In this document: positions 10,682-31,936 of the stretch, one piece after another | Position numbering within the stretch: the first letter of the stretch is position 1 | Layout of the letters: each line of letters opens with the position of its first letter | Assembly: GCA_016793565.1 (NCBI GenBank) | Contig: JAEUMA010000569.1 | Location: 1-32,756 of the forward strand | Length of the DNA: 32,756 bases | Source: Rhizobiaceae bacterium | GTDB taxonomy: Bacteria; Pseudomonadota; Alphaproteobacteria; Rhizobiales; Rhizobiaceae | Direction: 5' to 3' | Notes under the pieces: model-generated | The model's input: only the letters and a program-made list of their open reading frames with translations | What the model was told of the DNA's origin: nothing | Databases searched by the model: none | Translations under genes and position numbers: made by a program

Positions 10682-11602
10682 CTAACCGGCGGGCCGGAAA
10701 GGCTTGGCCAGCGACGCCGGGAAATGCAGCGCCAGCATCTGCCGGTTCTGCGAGATGATCACCAGCACGACGATGGTGGCGAGATAGGGTAGGGCGGAGA
10801 GCAGTTCGGACGGCACCGCGAGCCCAATCGCCTGCCCCTGCAGCTGCAAAATCGTCATGCCGCCGAACAGCCACGCGCCGAGCAGTACGCGCTGAGGCCG
10901 CCAGGTGGCGAAGACGACGAGCGCCAGCGCGATCCAACCCTTGCCAGCGGTCATGTTCTCGACCCAGAGCGGCGTGTATGCGACCGAGAGATAGGCTCCG
11001 CCGAGGCCTGCCATCAGGCCGCCGAACAGCACGGCGAGATACCGGATTTTTATCACAGGATAGCCGATGGCGTGCGCCGTTTGCGGCGACTCGCCGATGG
11101 TGCGCAGCACCAGGCCCGACTTGGTGCGGTACAGGAACCAGGAGATGGCCACGAACATCGCCAGCGCGAGATACACCATCGGGTCGAAGCGAAAGAGCAT
11201 CGGTCCGACCAGCGGGATGTCCGACAGGCCCGGAATATGGATGCGGTCGAGGGCGTCGATCGGCGCGCTGCCGAAGCCGCGGCCCAGGAAAGCCGAGACG
11301 CCCGAGCCGAAGATGGCGAGCGCCAGTCCTGCCGCATACTGGTTGGTCAGGAAGGTCAGCGCCAGCACGCCGAAAAGAAGCGATGTGGCGGCACCCGCGA
11401 GGCCGCCAGCCAGTATCGCCACCGGCATGGAATAGCCGGCGACGACTGCGCCGAAGGCGATGGCCGCGCCCATCAGCATCATGCCTTCGATGCCGAGGTT
11501 GAGCACGCCGGATTTCTCCACCACCAGCTCGCCCAAGGCGGCAAAGACCAGCGGCGTTGCGGCGATGACTGTGCCGGCGAAGATGGCGACGAACAGATCC
11601 AT
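10682..11602 (-). CDS. ABC transporter permease, BMP/nucleoside (CUT2-like) family, second permease
   Basis: Only the last 306 aa of track ORF 10682..12181 are membrane-like (MDLFVAIFAGTVIAATPLVFAALGELVVEKSGVLNLGIEGMM...). The ATG at 11602 overlaps the upstream stop by 1 nt. Confidence 0.85.
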   Translation of the reverse strand: MDLFVAIFAGTVIAATPLVFAALGELVVEKSGVLNLGIEGMMLMGAAIAFGAVVAGYSMPVAILAGGLAGAATSLLFGVLALTFLTNQYAAGLALAIFGSGVSAFLGRGFGSAPIDALDRIHIPGLSDIPLVGPMLFRFDPMVYLALAMFVAISWFLYRTKSGLVLRTIGESPQTAHAIGYPVIKIRYLAVLFGGLMAGLGGAYLSVAYTPLWVENMTAGKGWIALALVVFATWRPQRVLLGAWLFGGMTILQLQGQAIGLAVPSELLSALPYLATIVVLVIISQNRQMLALHFPASLAKPFRPAG

Positions 11603-12663
11603 CAATGGCCCCCGGACCGGCGCAGCCGGTAGAAGATGAAGAAGTCGCAGGCAAGCAGGAAGAAGAGCAGGATGCCCTGGAAGATGCGCGTCAGCGCCGA
11701 GGGCAGGCCAAGCGTCATCTGCACCTGTTCGCCGCCGAGGAAGAGCAGCGACATCAGCAGTCCGCCGAGCACGATGCCGAAGGCGTTCAGCCGGCCGATG
11801 AAGGCCACGATGATGGCCGCGAAGCCGTAGCCGGGCGAGATCTGCGGCGAGAGCTGGCCGAGGGGGCCGGCAGCCTCGGCCACTCCGGCAAAACCGGCCG
11901 CCGCACCGCCGGCAAGCAGGCCGATCCAGATCGCGGACGATTCGCGAAATCCGGCGTAGCGGGCGGCGAGCGGTGCGGCGCCCGAGACCGACATCTTGTA
12001 GCCGAGGAAGGAGCGGTCGGTGAACAGCCACATGGCGACCACCGCGATGACCGTGGCGACGATCGAGGTGTTGAGCCGGTAGGCGGGATCGAAATAGGAG
12101 AACATCGCGGCGGGAGGCAGCAGCGCTGTCTGCGGATAGTTGAAGCCGGCCGGATCGCGCCACGGACCGTGCACGAGCCACGAGAGCAACAGCGTCGCCA
12201 CATAGGTCAGCATCAGCGTGACCAGCACCTCGTTGGTGTTCATGCGCGCGCGCAGGAAAGCCGGAACCGCCGCCCAGGCCATTCCGGCGACGATGCCGGC
12301 CAGGATCATCAGCGGCAGGAGCAACGCGTCAGGCGCCGGCCAGTAGAGGCCGACGCCGGTCGCCGCGATCGCGCCGGCGATCAGCTGGCCTTCCGCGCCA
12401 ATGTTCCAAACGTTGCCGCGGAAACCGACGGCGAGCCCGCAGCCGATCAGGATCAGCGGCGAGGCCTTGAGCAGCCACTCGGAAAGCCCATTGGCCGAAG
12501 ACAGCGGCTGGATGAAGAAGGCGTGCAGCGCGGCCAGCGGAGCGTAGCCGAGCGCCGCGAAGAAGGCGGAGCCCACCGCGAGCGTCAGAAGCGTGGCGAT
12601 GATCGGTGCGGCGACGCGCATCGCCGCCGAGGGCTGGGGCCGCTGCTCAATGGTGAAGTGCAC
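11602..12663 (-). CDS. ABC transporter permease, BMP/nucleoside family, first permease
   Basis: 353-aa multi-TM protein. GTG start at 12663 has an AAGGGGAG SD and overlaps the ATPase 3' end by 17 nt. The NIGAEGQ motif is shared with 29946..31007. Confidence 0.85.
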   Translation of the reverse strand: MHFTIEQRPQPSAAMRVAAPIIATLLTLAVGSAFFAALGYAPLAALHAFFIQPLSSANGLSEWLLKASPLILIGCGLAVGFRGNVWNIGAEGQLIAGAIAATGVGLYWPAPDALLLPLMILAGIVAGMAWAAVPAFLRARMNTNEVLVTLMLTYVATLLLSWLVHGPWRDPAGFNYPQTALLPPAAMFSYFDPAYRLNTSIVATVIAVVAMWLFTDRSFLGYKMSVSGAAPLAARYAGFRESSAIWIGLLAGGAAAGFAGVAEAAGPLGQLSPQISPGYGFAAIIVAFIGRLNAFGIVLGGLLMSLLFLGGEQVQMTLGLPSALTRIFQGILLFFLLACDFFIFYRLRRSGGH

Positions 12664-29949: not shown

Positions 29950-31007
29950 TCACCTTCGAGCGCCGCGTCGAACCGAACCTCGGATGGACCGTGGCCGCCT
30001 TTGCGCTCGCTGTCCTGGCGTGCCTGCTGGCGACTGCGCTTCTGCTGGCCACGACCGGCGCCGACATAGGCCAGGCCTTTTCGGCGCTGTGGAAGGGCGC
30101 GGCCGGTTCACGGCGCGCCTTGACCTCCACGCTGGTCAACGCAACGCCGCTCATTCTCACCGGCCTTGCGACCGTGGTGGCCTTTCGCGCGCAGATCTGG
30201 AGCATCGGGCAGGAGGGCCAGGTGTTTGCGGGCGCGATGGGCGGCTATCTCGGCGCGACGCTGCTGATGGGTCTGCCGCCGGTCCTGTTCTTTCCGGCCG
30301 TGCTCGCCTTCGGCGTCGCGGCCGGAGCGCTGCTGGGCGGCCTCTGCGGCTGGCTGCGCACGCGCTTCGGCGTGAACGAGATCATCTCTACCGTGATGAC
30401 CAATTACCTGATCGCCTATTTGATGTCGTGGATGCTATCCGGAGGGCCGTGGACCGAGGTGGGCACCGTCGCCTACCACCAGTCGCCGGAACTGCCGGCG
30501 GACGCCGTGCTGCCGATGCTGGCGGGAATCCCGCGGCTGCACGTCGGCGTGGTGCTGCCCTTCGTGGCGGCGCTGTTCTGTTCCGTGCTGCTCGCGCGCA
30601 TGCCGCTCGGCTACGAGATCCGCGGGCTCGGCTACAATCCGGAGGCTCTGCGCCACAAGGGCGTGGATATCGCGCGAACGGTGGTCGTGGTGATGATGAT
30701 TTCCGGCGGGCTGGCCGCGCTTGCCGGCGCCATCGAGTTGTTCGGCGTCAGCCACCGCCTGCGCGCCGACAACTTCGCCGGCCTCGGCTACTCGGGCATC
30801 ATCGTCGGCATGATCGGCGGCCTCAGCCCGCTGGGCACCGTGGTCGCCGGGCTGTTCTTCGGCGGGCTGGCCAGTGGTGCGGTTTCCATGCGCGTGCTTT
30901 CCGATACGCCGGCGGCACTGGTGCCGGCGATTCAGGGGCTGACGCTCTTCTTCTTTCTGTGCGCCGGCGTGCTGGCGCGCTACCGGATCGTCAGGAAGGC
31001 GCCATGA
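29946..31007 (+). CDS. ABC transporter permease, BMP/nucleoside family, first permease
   Basis: 353-aa multi-TM protein. ATGA overlap with the ATPase stop. The SIGQEGQ motif parallels NIGAEGQ in 11602..12663. Confidence 0.88.
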   Translation: MITFERRVEPNLGWTVAAFALAVLACLLATALLLATTGADIGQAFSALWKGAAGSRRALTSTLVNATPLILTGLATVVAFRAQIWSIGQEGQVFAGAMGGYLGATLLMGLPPVLFFPAVLAFGVAAGALLGGLCGWLRTRFGVNEIISTVMTNYLIAYLMSWMLSGGPWTEVGTVAYHQSPELPADAVLPMLAGIPRLHVGVVLPFVAALFCSVLLARMPLGYEIRGLGYNPEALRHKGVDIARTVVVVMMISGGLAALAGAIELFGVSHRLRADNFAGLGYSGIIVGMIGGLSPLGTVVAGLFFGGLASGAVSMRVLSDTPAALVPAIQGLTLFFFLCAGVLARYRIVRKAP

Positions 31008-31936
31008 GCCAGCTGTTCCAGGAAGCGATCCTCATCAGCATCCTCGCTTCCACGCTGAGGATCATGACGCCGCTGCTCTTTTCGGCGATGGGCGAACTGG
31101 TGACCCAGCGCGCCGGCATCTGGAACATGGGTGTGGAAGGCACGATGCTGATGGGCGCCTTCGCGGCCTATATCGGCGTCACGGCCTCGGGCTCACTTTG
31201 GCTTGCCGTCCTGGCCGGCGTATTGGCCGGCGTGCTGATGGGCGTGGTCATCGCCTTCATGACAGCAACCATGCGCGTCGACCATTTCATTGCCGGCCTC
31301 GGCCTGAACCTGCTCGCCTCCGGCCTCACGCTTTACTGGTTCCAGAGCTACATCAAGAGACGCGAGCAGCCGACCTTCTCCGGCTTCCAGAACTGGCCGA
31401 TTCCGGGCCTTGCGGACATCCCCTTCATCGGCGAGGTGCTGTTCTCCCAGCGCCTGCTAACCTACCTCGCCCTGCTCTGCGTTCCGGCCATCTGGTTCCT
31501 GCTTTACCGAACCCGCTACGGGCTGGAGCTGCGCTGCCTCGGCGAGAACCCCAAGGCGCTCGACGTGAAAGGGCTCAGCGTGCCCGCGCGGCAATACGCG
31601 GCCGTCATTTTTGGCAGCGCCATGACCGCGCTGGGCGGAAGCTTTCTCATGCTCGGCTTTTCCGACCGCTTCCTGGCCGATTTCAGCGCTGGGCGTGGCT
31701 GGATCGTGATCGTCGCACTGATCGCAGGAAACTGGGCACCGAAAGGCGTTCTGGTGGCGATCGTCGCCTTCGCTTTCCTGGAAGCGCTGGCCACGCACAT
31801 GCAGGTGCTTGGCGCGCCCGTTCCGCATCAGCTGCTTCTGGCGCTGCCCTATCTGGCGTCGATCGTCATTTTGATGTTCGTTCGCTTCCGCTCCGGCCAG
31901 CCGGCGCGCCTCGGCGTCGCCTATATGCGCGAGTAG
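31004..31936 (+). CDS. ABC transporter permease, BMP/nucleoside family, second permease
   Basis: Membrane-like C-terminal part of track ORF 29984..31936. The ATG at 31004 (MSQLFQEAILISIL...) overlaps the upstream stop (ATGA). The AGIWNMGVEGTML motif parallels SGVLNLGIEGMML in 10682..11602. Confidence 0.88.
   Translation: MSQLFQEAILISILASTLRIMTPLLFSAMGELVTQRAGIWNMGVEGTMLMGAFAAYIGVTASGSLWLAVLAGVLAGVLMGVVIAFMTATMRVDHFIAGLGLNLLASGLTLYWFQSYIKRREQPTFSGFQNWPIPGLADIPFIGEVLFSQRLLTYLALLCVPAIWFLLYRTRYGLELRCLGENPKALDVKGLSVPARQYAAVIFGSAMTALGGSFLMLGFSDRFLADFSAGRGWIVIVALIAGNWAPKGVLVAIVAFAFLEALATHMQVLGAPVPHQLLLALPYLASIVILMFVRFRSGQPARLGVAYMRE

What the first reader, a model, noticed from the sequence alone, without database searches (positions are those of the whole stretch)
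10682..31936. A 21-kb locus: two outward-facing BMP-family ABC importers bracket both demethylase modules; the substrate may be a methylated purine, nucleoside or similar heterocycle
Architecture seen: a GntR regulator and a BMP binding protein-ATPase-permease-permease operon run leftward (16229 down to 10682). Modules A and B sit in the middle, with an AraC regulator between them. A second BMP binding protein-ATPase-permease-permease operon runs rightward (27321-31936). By eye the two transporters are paralogous but well diverged. Established knowledge: characterised BMP/PnrA-family binding proteins bind purine nucleosides, nucleobases or related planar heterocycles (riboflavin in spirochaete RfuA). 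The one characterised split-Rieske enzyme acts on a methylxanthine. Inference: the locus imports and demethylates N-methylated purines, nucleosides or another N- or O-methylated heterocycle of plant or RNA-turnover origin. I could not find a purine-ring catabolic gene in the window, so salvage (demethylate, then reuse) is as plausible as catabolism.
Basis: inference. Interest (0 to 1): 0.7.

Follow-up and report, generated by a model that had tools for sequence, protein, structure and literature searches.

The report
Methyl-purine import and demethylation locus
This 21-kb stretch encodes two purine-type ABC importers and three caffeine-demethylase-like oxygenases, and probably strips methyl groups from imported methylated purine bases; it is widespread in soil and marine bacteria, but its substrate has never been tested.

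Summary
The architecture is real and far from chance. Genes run leftward from 16229 to 10682 (GntR, BMP binding protein, ATPase, two permeases) and rightward from 27321 to 31936 (a second BMP set).

Between them lie two modules. Module A has two oxygenase subunits without a Rieske domain, a Rieske-reductase fusion and a GST. Module B has a complete Rieske oxygenase, a GcvT-like protein and a reductase. Glutathione-dependent formaldehyde genes and an AraC regulator sit between the modules.

Module A is the NdmCDE type of caffeine degraders. Such homologues in Sinorhizobium and Mesorhizobium were noted in 2013 with function unknown.

New here:
- The left importer sits next to module A in 65 of 80 species.
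- The right importer type sits inside a demethylase operon in all 10 contexts examined.
- The left binding protein is 44% identical to guanine- and adenine-binding proteins, but has an invariant altered pocket.
- Adenine, guanine, adenosine-type and cytosine-type deaminases recur next to the block in separate lineages.
- The validated caffeine plasmid of Paraburkholderia caffeinilytica carries the same transporter type.

The 21 kb is two conserved units joined, not one mobile block. No substrate is proven.

The parts
10682..11605 (-). ABC permease 2 of the left importer
   Evidence: PF02653. Orthologues at 75-92% identity in the conserved block. 56% identical to a permease on the P. caffeinilytica caffeine plasmid.
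11602..12663 (-). ABC permease 1 of the left importer
   Evidence: PF02653, 140 bits. 55% identical to the CF1 plasmid permease.
12647..14185 (-). Double-domain ABC ATPase of the left importer
   Evidence: PF00005 matched in two stretches. 60% identical to the CF1 plasmid ATPase.
14304..15398 (-). BMP1: periplasmic BMP-family binding protein with a TAT signal, in the purine-base-binding clade
   Evidence: PF02608, 145 bits, plus a TAT signal. E = 1e-93 to AtzT (guanine) and to 3s99 (adenine). Pocket signature W-S-F-T-D-P-W-M-D, invariant except for position 139 (T/C/A/S), in 61 orthologues.
15411..16229 (-). GntR/FCD regulator, first gene of the left operon, divergent from module A
   Evidence: PF00392 and PF07729. 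39% identical to the GntR beside the NdmC-like gene in CF1.
16393..16407 (.). Candidate GntR operator: palindrome GATTGGTATCCAATC in the divergent promoter region
   Evidence: Single occurrence in the window. The most conserved non-coding element in an alignment of 68 orthologous intergenic regions, at 90% or more per column. Exact core in 19 of 68. Its role as an operator is inferred.
16475..17332 (+). A1: catalytic oxygenase subunit without a Rieske domain (NdmC-like, orthogroup 1)
   Evidence: VanA_C only. No CxH..CxxH motif; Fe motif ENFLDMGHFPFVH present. 48% identical to A2 and to the CF1 NdmC-like protein. 61-63% to the second VanA_C gene of marine operons.
17372..18271 (+). A2: catalytic oxygenase subunit without a Rieske domain (NdmC-like, orthogroup 2)
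   Evidence: VanA_C only. Fe motif ENFLDMGHFPYVH. 564 relatives in 185,579 species genomes. 44% identical to the CF1 NdmC-like protein.
18394..20160 (+). NdmD-like reductase: N-terminal Rieske domain, FNR-like domain and C-terminal plant-type ferredoxin
   Evidence: Rieske, NAD_binding_1 and Fer2 domains. CxH-x17-CxxH at residue 50 and CxxxxCxxC at residue 537. Matches the NdmD ferredoxin domain 6icm_D at E = 7e-19 and phthalate dioxygenase reductase at 4e-64. 42% identical to the CF1 NdmD-like protein over the full length.
20168..20815 (+). NdmE-like glutathione S-transferase-fold subunit
   Evidence: GST_N and GST_C domains. 64% identical to the GST in the CF1 caffeine cluster. Follows the reductase in 78 of 80 loci.
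20874..22007 (+). S-(hydroxymethyl)glutathione dehydrogenase (FrmA)
   Evidence: TIGR02818, 598 bits against a cutoff of 544. Present after the GST in 25 of 80 loci.
22078..22650 (+). S-(hydroxymethyl)glutathione synthase (Gfa)
   Evidence: TIGR02820, 315 bits against a cutoff of 235.
22640..23527 (-). AraC-family regulator, divergent from module B
   Evidence: HTH_18 and HTH_AraC. An AraC gene is divergent from the oxygenase in every module B context seen.
23714..24769 (+). B1ox: complete Rieske non-haem-iron oxygenase, NdmA/NdmB-like
   Evidence: Rieske and VanA_C domains. Rieske and Fe motifs present. Best solved match is NdmA at 1.7e-39, then NdmB at 5.6e-32.
24791..26059 (+). GcvT-like folate-binding aminomethyltransferase-fold protein. 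Probably traps formaldehyde as methylene-THF (inferred).
   Evidence: GCV_T, 191 bits, and GCV_T_C. No NCBIfam equivalog reached. Present at this position only in the window and its closest relative; elsewhere nearby or absent.
26056..27060 (+). Module B reductase (FNR-like domain plus plant-type ferredoxin)
   Evidence: NAD_binding_1 and Fer2. 42% identical to the C-terminal 317 residues of the NdmD-like protein. An ATG at 26056 overlaps the GcvT stop codon.
27321..28358 (+). BMP2: second BMP-family binding protein, with a Sec signal
   Evidence: PF02608, 77 bits. 29% identical to BMP1. Keeps the Trp/Trp sandwich; pocket signature W-H-S-A-D-E-W-L-N. Homologues down to 52% identity all lie in demethylase operons.
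28438..29949 (+). Double-domain ABC ATPase of the right importer
   Evidence: PF00005 matched in two stretches.
29946..31007 (+). ABC permease 1 of the right importer
   Evidence: PF02653.
31004..31936 (+). ABC permease 2 of the right importer
   Evidence: PF02653 in the C-terminal 310 residues of ORF 29984-31936. Start chosen by comparison with orthologues of 309-310 residues.

Best explanation
The locus imports N-methylated purine bases, or closely related nucleobase-like heterocycles, and removes their methyl groups oxidatively.

Proposed mechanism (every step below is inferred; no activity, binding or regulation was tested):
- Two periplasmic BMP-family binding proteins deliver different members of this compound class to two ABC importers.
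- Three regiospecific or substrate-specific non-haem-iron monooxygenase subunits hydroxylate N-methyl groups, which leave as formaldehyde. B1ox has its own reductase. A1 and A2 lack a Rieske domain and draw electrons from the Rieske cluster carried on the NdmD-like reductase, with the GST-fold protein as a scaffold. This is the arrangement of NdmCDE in caffeine degraders.
- Formaldehyde is handled by Gfa and FrmA through glutathione, and probably by the GcvT-like protein as methylene-tetrahydrofolate.
- The demethylated purine enters the cell's ordinary purine salvage or catabolism, which is encoded elsewhere.
- The GntR regulator probably controls the left importer and module A from one divergent promoter region with a conserved palindrome. 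The AraC regulator probably controls module B and the right importer.

Shown: gene content, motifs, homologies and conserved synteny.
For: 1. Architecture and cofactor motifs match the NdmCDE type.

2. Identities to the validated caffeine cluster on the P. caffeinilytica CF1 plasmid (status of the cluster from PMC10380055):
- A1 48%, A2 44%
- reductase 42%
- GST 64%
- FrmA 73%
- GntR 39%
- ABC ATPase 60%, permeases 55-56%

3. The best solved match of B1ox is NdmA (1.7e-39), followed by NdmB.

4. BMP1 matches AtzT (guanine Kd 0.11 uM, adenine 2.5 uM; PMC6834077) and the adenine-bound Brucella protein 3s99 at E = 1e-93, with 44% identity to each. It keeps the aromatic sandwich and Ser97/Phe98. 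It changes Glu165 to Asp, Asn218 to Met and Asn220 to Asp. This pocket is invariant in 61 orthologues except for position 139 (T/C/A/S).

5. BMP2-type proteins share the Asp and a hydrophobic residue at the same two positions.

6. Synteny:
- BMP1 importer plus GntR next to module A in 65 of 80 species; a BMP2-type importer in 6 more.
- AraC, oxygenase, reductase, BMP, ABC and an NdmCDE-like module in one operon in Ruegeria, an Oceanospirillales MAG, Devosia, Agrobacterium and Pseudomonas.

7. Nucleobase genes recur as immediate neighbours in separate lineages:
- Labrys: adenine deaminase (TIGR01178, 505 against 472) and a xanthine/uracil-family permease.
- Four loci, including Mesorhizobium kowhaii and M. 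loti CJ3sym: guanine deaminase (TIGR02967, 413 against 375) directly after the GST.
- Ensifer USDA 6670 and the closest relative of the window: an adenosine-deaminase-family gene inside module B.
- Other loci: 8-oxoguanine-deaminase-like and cytosine-deaminase-like genes.

8. The P. putida KF715 plasmid couples an NdmCDE-like module with a BMP binding protein, urate hydroxylase HpxO and an NCS2 nucleobase symporter.
Against: - No experiment exists for any member outside the caffeine degraders. The library held no paper on function.
- A1 and A2 are orthogroups distinct from NdmC, at 44-48% identity. B1ox is only 29-30% identical to the CF1 NdmA/B-like proteins. Substrates therefore cannot be transferred.
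- Most loci have no purine gene beside the block. The deaminase links come from roughly six lineages.
- BMP2 has no close characterised relative. A Trp/Trp sandwich could also bind other aromatic cations.
- GcvT, SHMT and PurU neighbours are typical of any methylamine or betaine demethylation cluster.
Confidence: 0.6

Rival explanations
1. It is a genuine methylxanthine (caffeine, theobromine, theophylline) degradation system, functionally equivalent to NdmABCDE. B1ox, A1 and A2 would remove the N1, N3 and N7 methyl groups to give xanthine.
For: - Three catalytic subunits, an NdmD-like reductase, an NdmE-like GST and FrmA mirror the Ndm set.
- B1ox best matches NdmA.
- The ABC components are 55-60% identical to those beside the CF1 caffeine cluster.
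Against: - A1, A2 and NdmC-type proteins are separate orthogroups at 44-48% identity. A1 and A2 are each conserved at 59-64% identity from rhizobia to marine operons.
- B1ox is only 29-30% identical to the CF1 NdmA/B-like proteins.
- BMP1 is 36-39% identical to the CF1 and KF715 binding proteins (37-40% by tblastn) and has a different pocket.
- The system is common in marine Rhodobacterales and in legume symbionts. From general knowledge, methylxanthines are not a typical resource in those habitats.
- Neighbouring amino-purine deaminases would have no role with xanthines.
Confidence: 0.12
2. The substrates are non-purine N-methylated heteroaromatic or quaternary compounds that are abundant around legumes and phytoplankton, such as trigonelline, homarine, N-methylnicotinamide or methylated pyrimidines. 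The BMP proteins would have been recruited to bind them by stacking and cation-pi contacts.
For: - The taxonomic spread (rhizobia, Roseobacter-group and Oceanospirillales bacteria) fits the habitats where, from general knowledge, trigonelline and homarine are abundant.
- GcvT, SHMT, PurU and serine-cycle genes lie beside some loci, as in betaine clusters.
- The H-bonding residues of BMP2 differ from those of known purine binders.
- Cytosine-deaminase-family neighbours occur in Labrys and Methylobacterium.
Against: - The nearest characterised relatives of BMP1 bind guanine and adenine and barely bind pyrimidines.
- Adenine, guanine and adenosine-family deaminases, a xanthine/uracil-family permease, HpxO and NCS2 are neighbours.
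- The only characterised enzymes of both oxygenase types act on purines.
Confidence: 0.18
3. The two halves are functionally unrelated neighbours. The left unit (importer, GntR, module A) and the right unit (AraC, module B, importer) would serve different pathways and lie together by chance.
For: - Both units lie side by side in only 2 of the 80 species loci, plus the closest relative.
- They have separate regulators.
- The candidate GntR operator occurs only once in the window.
Against: - In Ruegeria, an Oceanospirillales MAG, Devosia, contig L091 and Agrobacterium, a module-B oxygenase, a BMP2-type importer and an NdmCDE-like module form one co-directional operon. In Pseudomonas Cab53 the NdmCDE-like module lies adjacent on the opposite strand.
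- In Shinella, Rhizobium setariae, Pararhizobium, a MAG (L064) and Ensifer LC163, a BMP2-type importer replaces the BMP1 type beside module A.
Confidence: 0.07
4. It dealkylates s-triazine herbicides or other xenobiotics, since BMP1 is related to AtzT.
For: - BMP1 matches AtzT at E = 1e-93. AtzT binds 2-hydroxyatrazine and ammeline.
- TRZ/ATZ-family hydrolases are neighbours in one MAG lineage.
Against: - AtzT itself binds guanine best, and its authors regard guanine as the likely original ligand.
- The block is conserved at 70-90% identity across many natural isolates and marine MAGs.
- Dedicated formaldehyde genes point to methyl groups, not the ethyl or isopropyl groups of atrazine.
Confidence: 0.03

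Closest known systems
NdmCDE, the 7-methylxanthine N7-demethylase of Pseudomonas putida CBB5, and its homologue on the Paraburkholderia caffeinilytica CF1 caffeine plasmid
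   Same: - A catalytic subunit without a Rieske domain.
- A reductase carrying the extra Rieske cluster plus FNR and plant-type ferredoxin domains.
- An adjacent GST-fold subunit.
- A neighbouring GntR regulator and glutathione-dependent formaldehyde genes.
- Identities to the CF1 cluster: 44-48%, 42%, 64%, 39% and 73%.
   Different: - Two paralogous catalytic subunits, A1 and A2, instead of one. Each is its own orthogroup and is no closer to NdmC than to the other.
- The module is coupled to a dedicated BMP ABC importer in most genomes.
- It occurs mainly in Hyphomicrobiales, Rhodobacterales and marine bacteria rather than in caffeine degraders.
- Substrate unknown.
NdmA and NdmB, the methylxanthine N1- and N3-demethylases (PDB 6ick, 6icl)
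   Same: B1ox has the same Rieske-plus-VanA_C fold, and NdmA is its best solved match (1.7e-39). It works with an FNR-ferredoxin reductase.
   Different: - Only 29-30% identical to the NdmA/B-like proteins of the CF1 cluster.
- It has its own reductase without a Rieske domain, rather than sharing NdmD.
- In this window a GcvT-like gene is inserted between the oxygenase and the reductase.
AtzT (PDB 6pi5) and the Brucella 'basic membrane lipoprotein' (PDB 3s99), purine-base-binding BMP proteins of solute-binding cluster B-I
   Same: BMP1 is 44% identical to each and has a TAT signal like AtzT. It keeps the aromatic sandwich (Trp50 and Trp199 in BMP1 numbering), Ser97/Phe98 and Thr139.
   Different: Glu165 becomes Asp, Asn218 (His in 3s99) becomes Met, and Asn169 (Gly in 3s99) becomes Pro. 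These changes are invariant in 61 demethylase-linked orthologues. In AtzT, Asn218 contacts the guanine 2-amino group, so that part of the pocket is remodelled, at least around residue 218. BMP2 is only 28-30% identical to these proteins and also lacks Ser97/Phe98.
Glycine betaine and proline betaine Rieske demethylases (GbcAB, Stc2) with THF-linked C1 genes
   Same: An N-demethylating Rieske monooxygenase with an FNR-ferredoxin reductase. GcvT, SHMT and PurU occur nearby in some loci.
   Different: - NCBIfam GbcB hits are far below the cutoff (77-79 bits against 500).
- The binding proteins are of the BMP type. From general knowledge, betaine importers typically use ProX/OpuAC-type binding proteins instead.
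- Purine deaminases are neighbours.

Membership tests
NdmCDE-type split Rieske N-demethylase | Catalytic subunit lacks the Rieske [2Fe-2S] domain but keeps the mononuclear-iron site | tested here: met
   A1 and A2 match only VanA_C. Neither has a CxH..CxxH motif; both have E-x3-D-x2-H-x4-H.
NdmCDE-type split Rieske N-demethylase | Reductase carries an extra N-terminal Rieske cluster plus flavin/NAD and plant-type ferredoxin domains | tested here: met
   Rieske, NAD_binding_1 and Fer2 domains in one 588-residue protein. Cluster motifs at residues 50 and 537. Matches the NdmD ferredoxin domain at 7e-19. 42% identical to the CF1 NdmD-like protein.
NdmCDE-type split Rieske N-demethylase | GST-fold third subunit encoded directly after the reductase | tested here: met
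   GST_N and GST_C domains at 20168-20815. 64% identical to the CF1 GST. Present in 78 of 80 loci.
NdmCDE-type split Rieske N-demethylase | Orthology with NdmC of caffeine degraders | tested here: not met
   A1 and A2 are 44-48% identical to the CF1 and KF715 NdmC-like proteins, which are 58% identical to each other. A1 and A2 each have their own orthologues at 59-64% in marine operons. They are paralogous orthogroups. The CBB5 NdmC sequence itself was not available.
NdmCDE-type split Rieske N-demethylase | Forms a three-protein complex and demethylates 7-methylxanthine with formaldehyde release | not testable with these tools
   This needs biochemistry. Only indirect support exists: Gfa and FrmA lie adjacent.
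NdmA/NdmB-type Rieske N-demethylase | Rieske domain plus VanA_C catalytic domain, closest to NdmA/NdmB among characterised enzymes | tested here: met
   Pfam domains. Motifs. NdmA 1.7e-39 and NdmB 5.6e-32 are the top PDB hits.
NdmA/NdmB-type Rieske N-demethylase | Orthology with NdmA/NdmB of caffeine degraders | tested here: not met
   29-30% identity to the two full-length oxygenases of the CF1 caffeine cluster.
BMP/PnrA-family ABC importer, purine-base-binding clade (AtzT/3s99) | Bmp-domain binding protein with a double-domain ATPase and two BPD_transp_2 permeases | tested here: met
   Both operons have this gene set.
BMP/PnrA-family ABC importer, purine-base-binding clade (AtzT/3s99) | Aromatic sandwich around a planar ligand | tested here: met
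   Trp at the Tyr45 position and Trp at the Trp194 position in BMP1, BMP2 and all their orthologues.
BMP/PnrA-family ABC importer, purine-base-binding clade (AtzT/3s99) | Hydrogen-bonding residues that read guanine or adenine (Ser97, Glu165, Asn218/His, Asn220/Asp) | tested here: not met
   BMP1 has S, D, M, D. BMP2 has H, D, L, N. This indicates a related but different ligand. The ligand itself was not tested.
Glutathione-dependent formaldehyde oxidation pathway | Gfa, FrmA and FrmB/FghA all present | tested here: inconclusive
   Gfa and FrmA pass their equivalog cutoffs. No S-formylglutathione hydrolase lies in the window. An esterase-D gene follows FrmA in 12 related loci.

The most novel reading that the evidence does not exclude
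This conserved system could be a general bacterial route for recycling methylated purine bases released from RNA and DNA turnover, such as 7-methylguanine, 1- and N6-methyladenine, and N2-methylguanines. Two dedicated high-affinity importers and a set of interchangeable regiospecific catalytic subunits (at least five orthogroups without a Rieske domain, plus B1ox) would share NdmD-type reductases. The caffeine pathway NdmABCDE of Pseudomonas and Paraburkholderia would then be a specialised offshoot of it.
Probability: 0.3. Interest if true: 0.8.

Novelty: new variant of a known kind. Interest (0 to 1): 0.6.

Why it matters
Methylated purine bases are released continuously from tRNA, rRNA, mRNA caps and alkylated DNA. 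From general knowledge, how microbes reclaim them is poorly understood.

This block would give a concrete and testable answer. It has relatives in 564 places among 185,579 species genomes and occurs in model organisms such as Sinorhizobium meliloti (pSymA) and in Roseobacter-group bacteria. It supplies two candidate receptors, three candidate demethylases and two candidate sensors.

It would also explain where the unusual split-Rieske, GST-dependent NdmCDE enzyme of caffeine degraders came from. And it would provide new regiospecific N-demethylases for making methylxanthine or methylpurine fine chemicals.

Tried and rejected
- **Literature.** Searches for a described function found nothing relevant: Rieske with methylguanine; Rieske with methyladenine and nucleobase; ndmCDE with Rhizobi*; homarine/trigonelline with Rieske; 7-methylxanthine with 7-methylguanine. 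Summers et al. 2013, which first listed the rhizobial ndmCDE homologues, is not held. I relied on the 2015 review.
- **S. meliloti locus tags.** Only SMa1507, the probable BMP1 orthologue, could be traced. It appears in a proteome list and a transcriptome list, with no functional clue.
- **Inverted repeats.** The automatic search found none in the three intergenic regions. The GntR-side palindrome was found by eye and then checked. The exact core is present in only 19 of 68 orthologous regions, but the aligned consensus is 90% or more conserved.
- **Apparent fusion in Pseudonocardia (L080).** A 1144-residue ORF seemed to fuse the oxygenase and reductase. It is a frame artefact of very GC-rich DNA, and the A2-like gene is a separate ORF.
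- **Recurrent neighbours.** Clustering all flanking ORFs of the 80 loci found no further universally conserved neighbour. The block is self-contained.
- **Devosia neighbour.** The amidohydrolase beside the block is a dihydropyrimidinase, not a guanine deaminase. I did not count it as purine evidence.
- **NCBIfam 'putative B6 transporter' model.** It hits both binding proteins at only about 52 bits against a cutoff of 400. Rejected.
- **Homologue names.** The names attached to homologues of A2, B1ox and BMP2 in the large protein collection were all generic.

Full report

Yes.

Leftward operon:
- GntR/FCD regulator, 15411-16229
- BMP-family binding protein with a TAT signal, 14304-15398
- double-domain ABC ATPase, 12647-14185
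- two BPD_transp_2 permeases, 11602-12663 and 10682-11605

Rightward from 16475:
- two VanA_C-only proteins, A1 and A2
- a 588-residue Rieske-FNR-ferredoxin fusion
- a GST
- S-(hydroxymethyl)glutathione dehydrogenase (TIGR02818, 598 bits against a cutoff of 544)
- S-(hydroxymethyl)glutathione synthase (TIGR02820, 315 against 235)

An AraC regulator (22640-23527, minus strand) is divergent from module B. Module B is a complete Rieske oxygenase (B1ox), a GcvT-like protein and an FNR-ferredoxin reductase. It is followed by a second BMP binding protein, an ATPase and two permeases (27321-31936).

Motif checks agree. A1 and A2 lack the Rieske CxH...CxxH motif but keep the iron motif E-x3-D-x2-H-x4-H. 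The fusion protein has the Rieske motif at residue 50 and the plant-type ferredoxin motif at residue 537. B1ox has both a Rieske motif and an iron motif.

The two transporters are paralogous but distant, with 29% identity for the binding proteins, 38% for the ATPases, and 32% and 37% for the permeases.

The rest of the window holds no purine-ring catabolic gene. It carries Dak1, lipid genes, an aldehyde dehydrogenase, a polyamine-type ABC system, a LysR regulator and a YCII protein.

**2. What is module A, and was it known?**

It is the NdmCDE type. A review of caffeine degradation (PMC4408171) describes NdmCDE as the only reported case of this design. The Rieske domain is split from the oxygenase and fused to the reductase, and a GST-like protein is required.

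The same review reports that a BLAST search in 2013 found ndmCDE-like clusters of unknown function in 18 organisms, 'predominantly' Sinorhizobium and Mesorhizobium. The existence of module A in rhizobia is therefore prior knowledge. Its function is not.

I compared the window with the caffeine cluster on the 174-kb plasmid of Paraburkholderia caffeinilytica CF1 (status of the cluster from PMC10380055). Identities:

| Window protein | Identity to CF1 counterpart |
|---|---|
| A1 | 48% |
| A2 | 44% |
| Rieske-reductase | 42% over 588 residues |
| GST | 64% |
| FrmA | 73% |
| GntR | 39% |

A1, A2 and the NdmC-like proteins are three separate orthogroups. A1 and A2 each have orthologues at 59-64% identity in marine operons. 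The NdmC-like proteins of CF1 and P. putida KF715 are 58% identical to each other and 44-48% to A1 and A2. Two further orthogroups exist, in Shinella and Segnochrobactrum.

**3. What is module B?**

Among solved structures, B1ox is closest to the methylxanthine N1-demethylase NdmA (1.7e-39) and to NdmB (5.6e-32), ahead of the saxitoxin hydroxylases. It is only 29-30% identical to the NdmA/B-like proteins of CF1. Its reductase is 42% identical to the C-terminal part of the NdmD-like protein.

The GcvT-like protein reaches no equivalog cutoff. By analogy with folate-binding domains of other demethylases, I infer that it traps formaldehyde as methylene-THF.

**4. Are the transporters really tied to the oxygenases?**

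A scan of one genome per species found 564 relatives of A2. I mapped the window's proteins onto the best 80 loci:
- 65 have a BMP1 orthologue (60% identity or more) beside module A.
- 60 of these have the complete set of permease, ATPase, BMP1 and GntR, divergent from A1-A2-reductase-GST.
- 6 have a BMP2-type importer, an AraC regulator and a third subunit without a Rieske domain in that position instead.
- Only 4 complete loci have no BMP gene within 10 kb.

The genera include Labrys, Aminobacter, Mesorhizobium, Sinorhizobium (pSymA of strain 1021, about 826-836 kb), Nitratireductor, Hoeflea and Pelagibius.

For module B, I examined ten contexts of B1ox or BMP2 homologues, with BMP2 homologues down to 52% identity. 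All show AraC divergent from [oxygenase and reductase, or a VanA_C subunit]-BMP-ATPase-permease-permease. In most, one or two VanA_C genes, the Rieske-reductase and the GST follow directly in the same operon: Ruegeria, an Oceanospirillales MAG, Devosia, contig L091 and Agrobacterium. In Pseudomonas Cab53 that module lies adjacent on the opposite strand. In S. meliloti the contig ends at a further VanA_C gene, and Aminobacter anthyllidis has no such module downstream.

So modules A and B and a BMP importer form one functional system in many bacteria.

The window's 21-kb arrangement is a side-by-side join of two separately conserved units. It is seen in the closest relative (96% identical A2), in Ensifer sp. 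USDA 6670 and in Mesorhizobium neociceri. It does not move as one block.

**5. Regulation**

The 245-bp region between GntR and A1 holds a palindrome, GATTGGTATCCAATC, at 16393-16407. It occurs once in the window. It is the best-conserved non-coding element across 68 orthologous regions.

I infer that it is the GntR operator for both divergent operons. Module B and its importer have their own AraC regulator.

**6. What is the substrate class?**

Nothing is proven. Four lines of evidence point to methylated purine bases.

*(a) BMP1 sits in the purine-base-binding clade.* It matches AtzT and the Brucella protein 3s99 at E = 1e-93, with 44% identity to each. AtzT co-purifies with guanine. It binds guanine at 0.11 uM and adenine at 2.5 uM, and does not bind GTP. 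3s99 was modelled with adenine (PMC6834077). In the AtzT structure every heteroatom of guanine is engaged. This argues for free bases rather than nucleosides.

*(b) The pocket is remodelled in a conserved way.* The table gives the residue at each AtzT position.

| Protein | 45 | 97 | 98 | 139 | 165 | 169 | 194 | 218 | 220 |
|---|---|---|---|---|---|---|---|---|---|
| AtzT (guanine) | Y | S | F | T | E | N | W | N | N |
| 3s99 (adenine) | W | S | F | R | E | G | W | H | D |
| BMP1 | W | S | F | T | D | P | W | M | D |
| BMP2 (window) | W | H | S | A | D | E | W | L | N |

The BMP1 signature holds in all 61 orthologues apart from position 139, which varies (T/C/A/S). The BMP2 type has Asp at position 165 and Leu at 218 across soil and marine taxa.

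Both demethylase-linked types thus shorten the carboxylate at position 165 and put a hydrophobic residue at 218. In AtzT, residue 218 contacts the guanine 2-amino group. I infer extra room for a methyl group or a hydrophobic contact. The binding proteins of CF1 and KF715 keep Glu and Asn/His at these positions.

*(c) Nucleobase genes recur beside the block, though its surroundings otherwise vary*:
- Labrys: adenine deaminase (TIGR01178, 505 bits against 472), a xanthine/uracil-family permease, a second adenine-deaminase-like gene and a cytosine-deaminase-family gene.
- Four loci, including M. kowhaii and M. loti CJ3sym: guanine deaminase (TIGR02967, 413 against 375) directly after the GST.
- Ensifer USDA 6670 and the window's closest relative: an adenosine-deaminase-family gene (TIGR01430, 320 against 217) inside module B.
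- Two MAGs: an 8-oxoguanine-deaminase-like gene and a TRZ/ATZ-type hydrolase.
- A Methylobacterium MAG: a cytosine deaminase.

They represent about six independent lineages, not 80. The evidence is suggestive but not statistical proof.

*(d) NdmCDE-like modules in other phyla lie beside purine genes and BMP binding proteins.*
- The CF1 caffeine plasmid has a BMP binding protein, an NCS2 nucleobase symporter and an ABC system 55-60% identical to the window's left one.
- The P. putida KF715 plasmid adds urate hydroxylase HpxO.

**7. Against a simple 'caffeine' reading**
- The orthogroups are distinct from NdmC (section 2).
- B1ox has low identity to the CF1 NdmA/B-like proteins.
- The binding pocket differs from those of CF1 and KF715.
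- The system is common in marine bacteria and legume symbionts.
- The neighbours are amino-purine deaminases, which have no role with xanthines.

A non-purine N-methyl heteroaromatic substrate such as trigonelline or homarine cannot be excluded, especially for BMP2 and module B. C1/THF genes (GcvT, SHMT, PurU, serine-cycle enzymes) beside some loci fit any demethylation with high formaldehyde flux. They also suggest that the methyl groups are used nutritionally, not merely removed for salvage.

**8. Verdict**
The link between importers and demethylases is strongly supported. A methylated purine-base substrate is the best-supported class, at about 0.6, but is untested.
- The system is a new variant of a known kind: Ndm-type N-demethylases with dedicated BMP importers, two extra orthogroups without a Rieske domain, and a second reductase.
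- It is of real interest because it is widespread, sits in tractable model bacteria, and could explain how methylated nucleobases are recycled in nature.

Noticed in passing
L014, L016, L017, L020, L026-L028, L031-L033 and others (24 of 80 loci); corresponds to window ~20815-22000: In 24 draft assemblies the contig ends within 1.3 kb after the GST gene, at or inside frmA. This suggests frmA, or the sequence just beyond it, is a near-identical repeat in those genomes, for example a second copy of the formaldehyde dehydrogenase gene.
   Followed up: partly
window 27061-27320; L094 20108-20900; L023 16811-17860: The closest relative of the window and Ensifer sp. USDA 6670 carry an adenosine-deaminase-family gene between the module B reductase and BMP2. 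The window has only a 260-bp gap there. This points to a recent loss or gain of a purine deaminase inside module B.
   Followed up: partly
L084 11103-13246 (Segnochrobactrum spirostomi): A three-way split variant: B1ox, a ferredoxin-type reductase, a free-standing 209-residue Rieske protein, a VanA_C subunit and a GST. Here the Rieske domain is fused to neither the oxygenase nor the reductase.
   Followed up: no
L060-L062, L064, L065, L069 (Shinella MAG, Rhizobium setariae, Ensifer LC163, a Rhizobiales genome (L064), Pararhizobium, Rhizobium sp. LjRoot254): In these genomes three subunits without a Rieske domain (A1, A2 and a third at about 50% identity) share one Rieske-reductase. A BMP2-type importer replaces the BMP1 type, and a serine hydroxymethyltransferase gene lies upstream.
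   Followed up: partly
L098 78-6799 (Sinorhizobium meliloti contig): A GcvT-like gene, a PurU-type formyltransferase-fold gene, an aminotransferase, a 2-hydroxyacid dehydrogenase and SHMT lie directly upstream of an AraC-VanA_C-BMP-ABC unit. This looks like a THF/serine C1 assimilation set attached to the demethylase system.
   Followed up: no
window 4031-10626: The neighbouring cluster appears unrelated: a LysR regulator (9703-10626), a polyamine-type ABC importer (binding protein 8419-9621, ATPase 7251-8249, two permeases) and an aldehyde dehydrogenase (4031-5458). An 81%-identical aldehyde dehydrogenase lies right after the GST in one MAG (L077).
   Followed up: no
L093 (P. putida KF715 plasmid pKF715A, 459-476 kb): An NdmCDE-like module sits with three 2-oxoglutarate/Fe oxygenase genes, urate hydroxylase HpxO, a BMP binding protein, an OmpK-type outer-membrane protein gene and an NCS2 symporter, on a conjugative IncP plasmid better known for biphenyl degradation. 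This is a possible mobile purine or methylpurine catabolic island.
   Followed up: no
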